Below are positions 2,906-46,567 of a stretch of 64,000 nucleotides of DNA, piece after piece; within the stretch, counting starts at the first letter, position 1; every line of letters begins with the position of its first letter. The stretch comes from Candidatus Freyarchaeum deiterrae (GTDB lineage Archaea; Asgardarchaeota; Jordiarchaeia; Jordiarchaeales; Jordiarchaeaceae): assembly GCA_037305845.1 (NCBI GenBank), contig CP147778.1:1760001-1824000 (forward strand), in the 5' to 3' direction. A program made the position numbers and the translations under genes. The notes beneath the pieces were generated by a model. The model was not told the origin of the DNA. It saw only the letters and a list, made by a program, of their open reading frames with translations, and ran no database searches.

Positions 2906-3233
2906 GAAGCCCCTTTGGCACAAAACAAGTCTTTGTTTAGATACTCATCGTGTCTCCTGTGAAAACAATATCCAGACAGAGTGGAAATAGAATGCCATTT
3001 AAAAATTGATATTTGAATTCTTTAAAAGAATTCAAAAATTCTATTACTCCTTTTTTTAGTTAATAACTGAATTTATTTAACTTTATGATTTCACCATTAA
3101 GTAGCCTTTTAAAAATATTAAATTTCATATTTGTTAGTATATAATAAGACCTTAGTTTTGCACCCATTAGGTTAAAGATTTATTTTACATTACATAATAG
3201 TTGACAGTTGACTTACTTCAATGGAGGTTGTTC

Positions 3234-4727
3234 ATGTCTAAATGGCCTTTTATTGCGGGCGACTACTTTGTTGGAAACGAAAAATCTGCTATTGCCGTAG
3301 TTACTTGCGGATCTTACGAGTTACCAAAAGAGTTAGCTAAGCTGAGTAATAAAATAGCAATTGTTGGTTTCTGTGAAACTGAAAATGATGGAATAGCAAA
3401 GATTCTACAAAACCTAGCTTCTAACCCCTATGTTAGAATACTTATTATCTGCGGTGAAAGAGTGGTTGGTCATGAACCCGGACAAACACTCATATCGCTC
3501 TACAATAATGGGATTGATAAAAACTACAAAATCAAAGGGAGTGAGGGAACTATCCCCATTCTTCACCCAAACTATTTTCACGGAGATGATCCGAATAAAT
3601 TTGTTGAAAGATTTCAAAGACAAATCATCAATGTCTTAGACGCCAGGGGAGAAACTGACATTGAAAAAATAATCTCTTTCATCAATGAGTTTGATGAACA
3701 AAATCTCTCTCCCTTTCCTGAGGATCCTATCCTTCCTTTAAGACCCAAAGTCGAATACGATTGGGATACAGGGGTAAAGCGATTTCTAGACGAAAACAGA
3801 TTCTATTTTAATAAGGGCATACCTCTGTTAAATCCTTTAATATTTACTGGACAATTGAAAGTTTATGATATCGCAGGAATTAAGATAGGCGGGCAGAGAG
3901 GCGAGTATCCTATAATTTTGGCTGGTACCATGTTTTACAGGGGAGATAAATTAGTAAGTAATCACGATGAAGGCCTTTTTGATAAAACTAAGGCCGAGGA
4001 GCAAATTAGAAAGCAAGACGAAAACTCATTAAAGTACGAACTTCCTGCAATTGTACACATCGTAGGAGAGACTACTAAAGCTTTAACAAATTATCTTCTA
4101 TTTGTCGCGGATTCTACAGATTCACCAATAATTATCGATTCACCCATTTTAGAATCAAGAATAGAAGCGATGAGCGTAGCCAAAGATACGGGGCTAGATA
4201 GTAGAGTAATATACAACTCAGTGATTAGCGCGGATAAAAAAGAAAAAAACCTAATAAACGAAATTGGAACAATAGAATATTCCATAGTTTTACCCTTTGA
4301 TGTAAAACTAACCTCAAGGATTAGCAGACTTGAGGAAATACTGAAATTTGTCGGAGACGCAATCAAAAATCCGATCATCGATCCTGGTGTCTCTATTCTA
4401 GGAGAAGGTTCGCTAAGCGCTTTGCATGCGGCTTGGTTGCTCAAAAATTATTATGGTTACCCCGTGTGTATTGGAGTGCATAACTTACAGTCTAGAATCA
4501 CTGAAAGTAAGAAGGAATTAAAAGAACTCGATTTCTCATTTGATTATGCTCTACCTTCCTTTTATGGAATTGATATAAATCTTTACGGTCCAATAAAAAA
4601 CGCAGATAGTATATTCAGAGAGGTAGCAGCTGTTGAAGCTGCAATTGCGGATGAGAATGTAAATACCATTGGAGTTTCTCCTAAACCTCCTCATCCCTAC
4701 TATGCTGTGAACCTTGGTCGTGAATAA
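3234..4727 (+). CDS. Soluble MtrA-MtrH (MtxA-MtxH-like) fusion: corrinoid protein plus methyl-H4MPT/H4F methyltransferase
   Basis: N-terminal WP..GDY.VG, G.CETENDGI.K...N..SNP..R, GHEPGQ (cobamide His). From about residue 205, IAGIKIGGQRGEYP..LAGTMFY (MtrH start), IIDS, YNS, YGPI. ATG 3234 follows a GGAGG SD (ORF track starts at TTG 3201). No TM anchor. Confidence 0.85.
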   Translation: MSKWPFIAGDYFVGNEKSAIAVVTCGSYELPKELAKLSNKIAIVGFCETENDGIAKILQNLASNPYVRILIICGERVVGHEPGQTLISLYNNGIDKNYKIKGSEGTIPILHPNYFHGDDPNKFVERFQRQIINVLDARGETDIEKIISFINEFDEQNLSPFPEDPILPLRPKVEYDWDTGVKRFLDENRFYFNKGIPLLNPLIFTGQLKVYDIAGIKIGGQRGEYPIILAGTMFYRGDKLVSNHDEGLFDKTKAEEQIRKQDENSLKYELPAIVHIVGETTKALTNYLLFVADSTDSPIIIDSPILESRIEAMSVAKDTGLDSRVIYNSVISADKKEKNLINEIGTIEYSIVLPFDVKLTSRISRLEEILKFVGDAIKNPIIDPGVSILGEGSLSALHAAWLLKNYYGYPVCIGVHNLQSRITESKKELKELDFSFDYALPSFYGIDINLYGPIKNADSIFREVAAVEAAIADENVNTIGVSPKPPHPYYAVNLGRE

Positions 4728-30045: not shown

Positions 30046-30195
30046 TGGTGCTCCGGCCGGGAAATTCGGATTGACACCAAGTGTTAATCATTCGAACCCG
30101 GGTCGAGGAGGCGAATGGACAGGCGATTCATTTGAATCGTCTAAAGCCCCTTATGCTTAGCCATATCTTGTTTGGCCGGGCTACACCACCGGAGC
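30046..30195 (-). tRNA. tRNA-Glu(UUC) with three BHB introns (21/22: 30157-30171; 34/35: 30115-30143; 59/60: 30063-30090), CCA encoded
   Basis: Spliced 78 nt: GCTCCGGTGGTGTAGCCCGGCCAAGCATAAGGGGCTTTCGCCTCCTCGACCCGGGTTCGAATCCCGGCCGGAGCACCA; full cloverleaf. Confidence 0.9.
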
Positions 30196-38793: not shown

Positions 38794-38810
38794 AGAAAAA
38801 AATTTATATT
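38794..38810 (+). promoter_or_regulatory. BRE-TATA promoter of tRNA-Pro
   Basis: GAAAAAAA-TTTATATT about 28 nt upstream of the tRNA 5' end. Confidence 0.6.
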
Positions 38811-38835: not shown

Positions 38836-39053
38836 GGGGTTGTAGTCTAGAGGATTAAGGTTCTCTTAGACCGGAAAAATTGGTATGAGCCCTCGAGAAC
38901 CCCCTCGATGGGTACAATTCCGCTTAAGGCTTTTTAAGCGGCGAGAGTCCTGCCTGGGGCGGAGAACTCAGAGTTTTCCACTGAACGCAGGCGGTCCCGA
39001 GTTCAAGATACCATCTCAAATCGGTTGGTTTGGAAATCTCGGCAACCCCACCA
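38836..39053 (+). tRNA. tRNA-Pro(GGG) with five introns (15/16: 38851-38878; 24/25: 38889-38917; 25/26: 38919-38947; 37/38: 38960-38985; 59/60: 39008-39036), CCA encoded
   Basis: Spliced 77 nt: GGGGTTGTAGTCTAGATTGGTATGATTCCTGCCTGGGGCGCAGGCGGTCCCGAGTTCAAGTCTCGGCAACCCCACCA; all four stems pair; oligo-T follows. Confidence 0.88.
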
Positions 39054-39065
39054 TTTTTTCTCTTT

Positions 39066-40247
39066 TTATGAGGAATTAGAACCAGCATCTACAGTGTAAT
39101 CTCTGGAAAAACTTGGCTGTCGATTCCTTTTTTTCCAAGCCATAACCGCAGAAATTATCGATAGAGCAGAGACGGGGGTAAGAATGGCGATCTTACTCGT
39201 AAGCGAATCTCCTTCACTTAAAAATGGCAATAATGTTAATGCTGAAAAGCCTGATGTCTCTTTTTCAACCGTATAATAAGTACTTGAATCATTGATACAC
39301 TGGGTTCCATTGTAAAAAACAAGTACATTTAACGCATATTTGCCAGATATTAAGGGCGCGTTAATAGTTCCTGTCCAATTATTGCCCGCTGCATTCTCTA
39401 ATGGAAAACTATCATTAATAAACACTAAAACTAGGGGGTCACTATAATTAAGTTCTATATTCACAAGAATTGGCGTATTTGGCTCAACTCTGGTTGCATT
39501 CAAAGCAATCGATACAATTTCTATGGAGGGGGAAATAATAGACACATTAAATTCACTTTCAGTTGAACCATATAATTGAGTACCTCCAAATTCTAGATAA
39601 AAGCTAAGCTGTCCAATAGCAGTACCAGGTGGAATCATCCAAGATAATTTACAATGGCCAAATGCATCCGTAGTTGATTCAGTAAGATTATTGTTTTGGT
39701 AATCGCACAATTGTACCTGCTGATTGGAAATCGAATTGTAAATGTTATCCTTTAGGTCTGCTTCAACTACCAAATACTCTCCAGAATAAGCTGACATCTG
39801 GTAGGTGAGATTCACAAAAGTTGTTCTGGCTTTAATAAGAAGATCAGTATACACAGGTATAGCATCGGGCCTACTAGGACATGAAGCTTTGATGGTCGTT
39901 AATCCTAGGGGGCAATTCTGTGCTATACCCCAATTTAGCACCGCGTACCCACTAGAATTAGTATATTCACCACCAATTGACAGATTGTTTGTCAAATCGT
40001 CAAAATAGGTTATTACTCCTGTAAGAGGGTCTCCGCTCGAATTCATAATTCTCACGGTTACTGTTACATATTCGCCCCTATAACAGATCAAGGGTTGGCT
40101 CTTGCTCAATGAACCAGTTGAAAAATTGGATGGGTAACAGATGTTATTCTGGTATCGTGTAAATATAAAAACTAGCATTAAGACTGAAATTATTAGCATG
40201 ATTCGACCTTTTTTGCCGAAGATTATTTTTCTATAATGAAGTTTCAT
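39066..40247 (-). CDS. Membrane-anchored extracellular protein with Ig-like folds
   Basis: N-terminal basic plus hydrophobic signal; two similar T..G...L.W.I....G repeats; many NxS/T; C-terminal TM plus KKR. Confidence 0.75.
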   Translation of the reverse strand: MKLHYRKIIFGKKGRIMLIISVLMLVFIFTRYQNNICYPSNFSTGSLSKSQPLICYRGEYVTVTVRIMNSSGDPLTGVITYFDDLTNNLSIGGEYTNSSGYAVLNWGIAQNCPLGLTTIKASCPSRPDAIPVYTDLLIKARTTFVNLTYQMSAYSGEYLVVEADLKDNIYNSISNQQVQLCDYQNNNLTESTTDAFGHCKLSWMIPPGTAIGQLSFYLEFGGTQLYGSTESEFNVSIISPSIEIVSIALNATRVEPNTPILVNIELNYSDPLVLVFINDSFPLENAAGNNWTGTINAPLISGKYALNVLVFYNGTQCINDSSTYYTVEKETSGFSALTLLPFLSEGDSLTSKIAILTPVSALSIISAVMAWKKRNRQPSFSRDYTVDAGSNSS

Positions 40248-44119: not shown

Positions 44120-44286
44120 GGGCCCGTAGCTCAGAGGAATAAACTAATACTTCCGAGAAACCTGGTAGAGCGACAGAATTCTGCCAGAAAATCGTCGAAG
44201 CTCATATGTAACGCTGAGAAACCTGTTGGTCCAGGGTTCGAAAGAGCTTTATCAGTAAAGCTCCGAACATCCCTGCGGGCCCACCA
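44120..44286 (+). tRNA. tRNA-Ile2(CAU) with four BHB introns (15/16: 44135-44160; 30/31: 44177-44199; 37/38: 44207-44220; 59/60: 44243-44269), CCA encoded
   Basis: Spliced 77 nt: GGGCCCGTAGCTCAGCCTGGTAGAGCGACAGGCTCATAACCTGTTGGTCCAGGGTTCGAATCCCTGCGGGCCCACCA. The GGGCCC acceptor is typical of archaeal Ile rather than Met tRNAs. Confidence 0.88.

Positions 44287-44840: not shown

Positions 44841-46567
<1,727 letters not shown>

What the first reader, a model, noticed from the sequence alone, without database searches (positions are those of the whole stretch)
38836..39053. tRNA-Pro(GGG) with five introns and a one-nucleotide exon
141 of 218 nt are intron. Intron 2 (GUAU/GUAC helix, bulges GA|G and AA|U) and intron 3 (long CCGCUUAA/UUAAGCGG hairpin) are separated by the single nucleotide U25 (38918). 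The relaxed helix of intron 3 can form only after intron 2 is removed, which implies ordered splicing. Removing all five gives a 77-nt cloverleaf whose D-arm (GTCTAG..GGTATGATTC) resembles eukaryotic tRNA-Pro. From memory, archaeal tRNAs are described with up to three introns, so five would exceed that; this needs a literature check.
Basis: seen in the sequence. Interest (0 to 1): 0.9.

Follow-up and report, generated by a model that had tools for sequence, protein, structure and literature searches.

The report
Five-intron tRNA with one-base exon
The only proline (GGG) tRNA gene of a soil Asgard archaeon is cut by five short protein-spliced introns, and two of them flank an exon of a single base and most likely come out one after the other; heavy interruption of tRNA genes is already published for this lineage, but I found no report of a one-base tRNA exon.

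Summary
The genome is the complete 'Freyarchaeia' genome of Valentin-Alvarado 2024, whose table lists this gene with three introns only. Removing five introns (15/16, 24/25, 25/26, 37/38, 59/60; 141 nt) gives a 77-nt Pro(GGG) cloverleaf, the only Pro(GGG) gene I found in the genome. U25 (38918) is very probably a one-base exon. It is invariant in 12 orthologues, a relative lacking intron 3 keeps it, and intron-free tRNA-Pro genes read GGTATGATTC. A 2026 preprint reports up to five insertions per Asgard tRNA gene, and ordered bulge-helix-bulge splicing is known. I found no published one-base tRNA exon, and that preprint's gap scoring merges introns 2 and 3. This scan already reported the same one-base exon in a four-intron orthologue, and a similar one in a tRNA-Tyr.

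The parts
38795..38810 (+). Archaeal BRE + TATA-like promoter (A-run then TTTATAT), about 30 nt before the mature 5' end
   Evidence: Seen in sequence; conserved upstream of the orthologues L002-L004; function inferred
38836..38850 (+). Exon 1, tRNA positions 1-15
38851..38878 (+). Intron 1 at 15/16 (28 nt); central helix GUCU/GGAA 3/4, 4/4 in orthologue L103
   Evidence: same coordinates in the published table
38879..38888 (+). Exon 2, positions 16-24; G19-U22 is the helix strand for intron 2 and U20-G23 the helix strand for intron 3
38889..38917 (+). Intron 2 at 24/25 (29 nt); central helix 4/4 in all 12 orthologues; not in the published table
38918..38918 (+). Exon 3 = single base U25 (pairs with G10 in the D-stem); third base of intron 2's 3' bulge and second base of intron 3's 5' bulge
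   Evidence: Invariant in 12/12 orthologues; kept in L007, which lacks intron 3; intron-free genes have TT here
38919..38947 (+). Intron 3 at 25/26 (29 nt); 9-bp hairpin; central helix UAUG/CGAG 3/4 after intron 2 removal, UACA/CGAG 2/4 before; not in the published table
38948..38959 (+). Exon 4, positions 26-37, with anticodon GGG at 38956-38958
38960..38985 (+). Intron 4 at the canonical 37/38 site (26 nt); central helix 2/4 but outer helices of 5 and 8 bp; +1 and +2 registers give the same product
   Evidence: published table
38986..39007 (+). Exon 5, positions 38-59
39008..39036 (+). Intron 5 at 59/60 in the T-loop (29 nt); central helix 4/4, exon helix 5 bp
   Evidence: published table
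39037..39053 (+). Exon 6, positions 60-76, with encoded CCA
39054..39067 (+). T-rich tract, likely archaeal terminator
   Evidence: Seen in sequence; function inferred

Best explanation
This is the working tRNA-Pro(GGG) gene of a Jordarchaeales ('Freyarchaeia') Asgard archaeon. The precursor is matured by the splicing endonuclease EndA and the ligase RtcB, which remove five bulge-helix-bulge (BHB) introns. Introns 1, 4 and 5 form their motifs independently of the others. Introns 2 and 3 share one exon strand, shifted by one base (G19-U22 versus U20-G23), and U25 sits in a bulge of both motifs, so the two motifs cannot be formed at once. Intron 2 is cut first and A24 is ligated to U25. The new junction then becomes the 5' bulge (A24-U25|U) of intron 3's motif, which is cut one base 3' of the fresh ligation site and religated to U26. 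U25 is never released as a free nucleotide. SHOWN: the sequence anatomy, the cloverleaf, conservation of the motifs, the natural control lacking intron 3, and the presence of the enzyme genes. INFERRED: transcription, actual cut sites and the order of events.
For: Spliced product is a clean Pro(GGG) cloverleaf, and the blind parser ranks it first. It is the only Pro(GGG) found in a complete genome with about 20,900 CCC+CCU codons in long ORFs. Pro(CGG) and Pro(UGG) of the same genome, and four other Asgard Pro(GGG) genes with an uninterrupted D-stem, read GGTATGATTC, so the product needs U25-U26. The syntenic orthologue L007 has intron 2 directly followed by TTCCTGCC. The intron-2 helix is 48/48 cells paired. 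The intron-3 helix is 39/44 paired against exon UAUG versus 23/44 against the unspliced context; its invariant C pairs with G23 in 11/11 and with the unspliced partner in 0/11. Constrained folding of the precursor gives intron-2 motif +3.5, intron-3-first +7.8, slipped +12.5 and one-piece +14.6 kcal/mol above the minimum. The genome encodes two EndA paralogues and RtcB. The catalytic one aligns end to end with PDB 3p1z/3ajv, including the N-terminal loop region and the Tyr/His/Lys residues; such loops give broad specificity (PMC3241643).
Against: In this genome intron 3's helix is only 3/4 paired, with two G-U pairs. Intron 4 shows that a 2/4 helix can be tolerated, so pair counts alone do not forbid intron-3-first. 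In two relatives (L002, L010) the intron-3-first fold costs no more than the intron-2 motif. The orthologues come from two families and are not independent, and nearest-neighbour energies of BHB motifs are approximate.
Confidence: 0.78

Rival explanations
1. Same five introns and same one-base exon, but the order is only a preference: a relaxed EndA can also cut intron 3 first, using the end of intron 2 (UACA) as the helix strand. The final tRNA is identical.
For: The intron-3-first motif keeps the 9-bp inner helix and 2/4 central pairs here, 3/4 in L002, L006 and L010. Intron 4 is cut with 2/4. Energies are comparable in L002 and L010. The precise loss of intron 3 alone in G006 would be easiest to explain from such an intermediate (inference).
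Against: The pair next to the 5' bulge is a mismatch in 11/11 genes. The strand it needs is already paired in intron 2's own motif. It costs 4.3 kcal/mol more in this genome.
Confidence: 0.12
2. Introns 2 and 3 leave as one 58-nt piece (38890-38947), using the same UAUG/CGAG helix; the first base of 'intron 2' becomes position 25. The gene then has four introns and no micro-exon.
For: The central helix is the same as for intron 3, and 2 inner pairs are possible. The product has the right length. An affine-gap alignment prefers this parse.
Against: It gives G25 or A25 opposite G10, whereas the intron-free Pro genes found have U25. That base varies (G/A) while U38918 is invariant. It leaves intron 2's perfectly conserved own motif unexplained. 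It costs +14.6 kcal/mol. The version that simply drops U25 has only 0-1 of 4 central pairs in all 11 genes.
Confidence: 0.05
3. The boundaries slide: either the exon is 2-4 nt (intron 3 begins with TCC, as does exon 4), or intron 2 is cut one base later so that the two introns abut with no exon between them.
For: Registers +1 to +3 of intron 3 give the same mature sequence in this genome, and the slipped intron-2 register has 3/4 central pairs.
Against: The shifted intron-3 registers have no inner helix. In the four sister-family genes the base after U25 is A, which rules out a TT exon. Slipped intron 2 gives G/A25 and costs +10.7 to +23 kcal/mol.
Confidence: 0.03
4. The gene is a decayed pseudogene that yields no mature tRNA.
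For: Low Infernal score (40.6) in the published table; ARAGORN and Rfam do not detect it.
Against: The low score comes from the unremoved 59-nt insert. No other Pro(GGG) was found in a closed genome. Exons are nearly invariant while intron loops drift.
Confidence: 0.02

Closest known systems
Multi-intron tRNA genes of Freyarchaeia/Atabeyarchaeia (Valentin-Alvarado et al. 2024, PMC11291895, Supplementary Data 4)
   Same: Same genome and same gene (1798836-1799053, Pro GGG); introns 1, 4 and 5 have identical coordinates.
   Different: The table gives 3 introns for this gene and at most 4 for any gene; it misses the D-stem introns 2 and 3 and the one-base exon.
Motif-free census of Asgard tRNA intervening sequences (Goswami, Ghosh, Sinha, bioRxiv 10.64898/2026.10.13.758758)
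   Same: Same lineage; reports missed D-arm insertions, BHB enrichment, two-subunit EndA and 'up to five in a single gene'.
   Different: The main text does not mention nested or adjacent introns, single-base exons or splicing order. Its gap penalties, re-run here with a perfect reference, merge introns 2 and 3 into one 58-nt run, giving four. Its supplementary tables were not available.
Nested multiple introns of crenarchaeal pre-tRNAs with ordered BHB formation (Sugahara 2007; Tocchini-Valentini 2009; as summarised in PMC3978253 and PMC3728597)
   Same: The last intron forms its BHB only after another has been spliced; same EndA/RtcB chemistry.
   Different: Here the exon between the two introns is one base and lies in a bulge of both motifs. 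I could not read the two primary papers, so their shortest exon is unchecked.
Single-nucleotide exons of spliceosomal and organellar genes (Arabidopsis, PMC4674806; Fusarium CYP621A, PMC12940212; Ophiostoma mitochondria, PMC12308204)
   Same: A one-base exon between two introns (titles and search counts; papers not read).
   Different: Those are spliceosomal or organellar introns in other genes, not protein-only endonuclease/ligase splicing of a tRNA.

Membership tests
Archaeal tRNA-Pro(GGG) gene | Spliced product folds into a canonical cloverleaf with anticodon GGG and the conserved tRNA bases | tested here: met
Archaeal tRNA-Pro(GGG) gene | Transcribed, matured and aminoacylated in vivo | not testable with these tools
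BHB (EndA-spliced) tRNA introns | [quoted passage not shown] | tested here: met
   Introns 2 and 5 are 4/4; introns 1 and 3 are 3/4 (relaxed, 4/4 in some orthologues); intron 4 is 2/4 with 5- and 8-bp flanks
BHB (EndA-spliced) tRNA introns | Host encodes EndA able to cut non-canonical, relaxed motifs, and an RtcB ligase | tested here: met
   Two EndA paralogues, one with the catalytic Tyr/His/Lys and the N-terminal loop region of PDB 3p1z; RtcB present. Sequence only, activity not tested.
BHB (EndA-spliced) tRNA introns | Cleavage at the predicted sites shown biochemically or in RNA | not testable with these tools
   No RNA or enzyme data
Nested / ordered multi-intron pre-tRNAs | One intron's BHB depends on exon sequence joined only by prior removal of another intron | tested here: met
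   39/44 versus 23/44 paired cells; G23-C pair 11/11 versus 0/11
Nested / ordered multi-intron pre-tRNAs | Order is strictly obligatory | tested here: inconclusive
   Favoured by folding energy in 9 of 11 genes, about equal in L002 and reversed in L010; intron 4 tolerates 2/4 pairing

The most novel reading that the evidence does not exclude
A tRNA exon of one base, conserved across two Asgard families, that survives only because two overlapping BHB motifs force an EndA, RtcB, EndA relay in which the bond just ligated sits inside the next bulge to be cut. This would require ligation to outrun the second cut, which points to coupling between endonuclease and ligase. It would also mean that published intron counts (up to five) are undercounts, because adjacent introns are merged.
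Probability: 0.6. Interest if true: 0.6.

Novelty: new variant of a known kind. Interest (0 to 1): 0.48.

Why it matters
It sets the lower limit for an exon in protein-only tRNA splicing and gives a compact, natural substrate to test whether EndA and RtcB hand the RNA over in order: if intron 3 were cut before A24-U25 is ligated, U25 would be lost and the only Pro(GGG) tRNA would be broken. It also shows that both published annotations of this lineage undercount introns at this gene (three in the 2024 table, four by the 2026 census scoring). The clean loss of intron 3 alone in one relative, with a single base of exon on one side, is hard to explain by recombination with a mature cDNA, so it bears on how these introns are lost. 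The intron number itself and ordered splicing are not new.

Tried and rejected
ARAGORN and Rfam do not see the unspliced gene. One-piece excision dropping U25 was rejected (0-1 of 4 central pairs). One-piece excision keeping G38889, slipped intron 2 and 2-4 nt exon registers were examined and are disfavoured. A second Pro(GGG) gene was sought by motif search and a genome-wide cloverleaf scan; the two other motif hits are not tRNAs. My parser handles introns without an inner hairpin poorly, so its genome-wide census is incomplete; among the genes it parsed well, no other had five introns or a one-base exon. Most pattern-scan hits in metagenomes and genomes were chance matches; only those with full tRNA context were used. 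No orthologue was found in G003 and G005 (draft assemblies). The primary papers on nested introns (Sugahara 2007, Tocchini-Valentini 2009 and 2011) and the 2026 preprint's supplements are not held. Literature searches for one-base or five-intron archaeal tRNA cases gave nothing beyond the preprint. The sigma-70 promoter scan is not relevant to an archaeon.

Full report
Identity. The window lies in a single-contig genome of 3,576,204 bases with an archaeal 16S gene. The tRNA coordinates match, base for base, those in Supplementary Data 4 of Valentin-Alvarado et al. 2024 (PMC11291895) for the complete 'Freyarchaeia' genome. Entry 21 there is 1798836-1799053, Pro GGG, with three introns that map to window 38851-38878, 38960-38985 and 39008-39036, Infernal score 40.6. 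A same-genus genome is labelled Candidatus Jordarchaeum madagascariense (L105 = L002).

Observation. Removing 38851-38878, 38889-38917, 38919-38947, 38960-38985 and 39008-39036 (141 nt) leaves exons of 15, 10, 1, 12, 22 and 17 nt. The 77-nt product is called tRNA-Pro(ggg) by ARAGORN, with 7/7 acceptor, 5/5 anticodon and 5/5 T-stem pairs and an encoded CCA. The introns sit at 15/16, 24/25, 25/26, 37/38 and 59/60. A blind beam-search parser (cloverleaf template plus BHB scoring) ranks this model first, with intron 4 one base over in an equivalent register, and recovers the four published introns of the neighbouring tRNA-Ile2(CAU) exactly. It is a BHB-based tool, so it is not independent of the motif.

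Is U25 needed? Yes. The genome's other two proline tRNAs, Pro(CGG) at 1625968 and Pro(UGG) at 1501840 (the latter absent from the published table), carry GGTATGATTCCTG uninterrupted. About 75 other Asgard genomes have an uninterrupted GGTATGATTCYTGCTTGGG; the eight of these loci I inspected are tRNA genes. The mature D-stem therefore needs U25 to pair with G10, followed by U26. No second Pro(GGG) gene was found, and long ORFs hold about 11,400 CCC and 9,500 CCU codons.

Orthologues. I recovered 12 distinct genes. Seven of this genome's type have all five introns. Five of the sister family share introns 1 and 2 (four also intron 3), carry their fourth intron at 42/43 instead of 37/38, and lack the T-loop intron. 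A histone-deacetylase-family gene lies downstream in both families (family named from the sequence motifs, not searched), supporting orthology. U38918 is invariant in 12/12, whereas the first base of intron 2 varies between G and A. L007 (genome G006) has intron 2 followed directly by TTCCTGCC, with no intron 3: a natural control in which this U must be exon. In an RpoB tree G006 groups with G007 (has intron 3) to the exclusion of G009 (has intron 3) at 100/99 support, so a precise loss is the most parsimonious reading; the tree of the linked deacetylase gene leaves that fork open.

Motifs. Intron 2's central helix is paired in 48/48 cells, and its inner stem shows compensatory changes between the families. 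Intron 3's inner stem is 93% paired with compensatory changes. Its four-base helix strand varies (CGAG, CGTG, CACG, CATG, CATA, CTTA, CGTA) but stays complementary to exon U20-G23: 39/44 cells, 4/4 in six genes and 3/4 in five. Against the four bases available before intron 2 is removed it pairs in 23/44 cells, never 4/4, and the pair next to the bulge fails in 11/11. Only 22% of random tetramers reach 3/4 or more with UAUG. The sequences are related, so these counts are not independent trials. In the four sister-family genes the base after U25 is A, which removes the register ambiguity (1 to 4 nt) that exists in this genome because intron 3 and exon 4 both begin with TCC.

Mechanism. Introns 2 and 3 use overlapping exon strands (19-22 and 20-23), and U25 is in a bulge of each motif, so the motifs are mutually exclusive (shown by the sequence). 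By the established BHB rule (cut after the second base of each bulge), intron 2 is cut at A24|G and A|U25; RtcB joins A24 to U25; the bulge A24-U25|U then forms and is cut one base beyond the new junction (inferred). Constrained folding of the local precursor puts the intron-2 motif at +3.5 kcal/mol above the minimum, intron-3-first at +7.8, slipped intron 2 at +12.5 and one-piece excision at +14.6. The intron-2 motif is cheaper than intron-3-first in 9 of 11 genes, about equal in L002 and costlier in L010. Since intron 4 of this gene has only a 2/4 central helix and must still be cut, intron-3-first cannot be excluded on pair counts; it would give the same final tRNA. The genome has two EndA paralogues. 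One aligns along its length with PDB 3p1z/3ajv (E 8e-43), including the catalytic Tyr, His and Lys and the N-terminal loop region; PMC3241643 shows that such a loop confers cleavage of non-canonical introns. The other lacks the catalytic His motif, consistent with a structural subunit (by inspection). RtcB is present.

What is known. The 2024 paper reports 92-95% of tRNA genes with introns and lists up to four per gene. A bioRxiv preprint of October 2026 (10.64898/2026.10.13.758758) reports 'up to five in a single gene', mostly missed D-arm insertions, and states that none has been shown to be spliced in a cell. It does not mention nested or adjacent introns or single-base exons. Re-running its gap penalties on this gene with the perfect mature sequence as reference gives four runs, with introns 2 and 3 merged into 58 nt, so that census would not see the one-base exon. 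Ordered splicing of nested archaeal tRNA introns is established (PMC3978253, PMC3728597). One-base exons are described in spliceosomal and organellar genes. I found no report of one in a tRNA, but could not read the primary nested-intron papers. Earlier notes of this scan describe the same one-base exon in a four-intron Pro(GGG) orthologue and a similar case in a five-intron tRNA-Tyr; these are leads, not independent proof.

Verdict. It works like, and on every testable feature belongs to, the archaeal BHB multi-intron tRNAs with ordered splicing. Five introns equals, and does not exceed, the published maximum. The new element is a conserved one-base exon shared between two overlapping motifs, with a natural intron-3-less control. 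This is a new variant of a known kind, interest 0.48, with no RNA-level proof.

Noticed in passing
window 30046-30195 (-): tRNA-Glu(UUC) with three introns (21/22, 30171-30157; 34/35 inside the anticodon, 30143-30115; 59/60, 30090-30063). It is absent from the published tRNA table; the spliced form is called tRNA-Glu(ttc) by ARAGORN.
   Followed up: partly
G000:C1:1545581-1545739 (-), outside the window: Published as Met(CAT), but removing a 16-nt intron at 34/35 (GGGC/GCCC helix, 4/4) gives tRNA-Glu(CUC); probably a mis-typed gene.
   Followed up: partly
G000:C1:1501690-1501840 (-), outside the window: tRNA-Pro(UGG) with three introns, missing from the published table. Further unlisted candidates: Leu(CAG) 1631535, Ser(CGA) 1647848, Ser(GCU) 1690305, iMet 1729308. 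The entry published as Ser(AGA) at 1326639 parses as a four-intron Cys(GCA).
   Followed up: partly
window 44120-44286 (+): tRNA-Ile2(CAU) with four introns and a 7-nt anticodon-loop exon, just upstream of the 16S gene; already in the published table.
   Followed up: yes
window 44896-46517 (+): The 16S rRNA match is 1622 nt against a 1478-position model, with an insert of about 90 nt near 45164-45256 that looks like an rRNA intron.
   Followed up: no
window 4618-4690 (-): ARAGORN's tRNA-Val(TAC) call lies inside a 508-codon ORF on the other strand (3201-4727) and is probably a false positive.
   Followed up: partly
L007:1415-1584 (genome G006): Apparently precise loss of intron 3 while intron 2, one base away, is kept; hard to explain by recombination with a fully spliced cDNA.
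   Followed up: partly
L162 (G000:C1:1451548-1452798, -): The RtcB profile matches only from model position 20 in a 442-codon frame; an earlier scan note says this rtcB gene itself carries a BHB intron. Not checked here.
   Followed up: no
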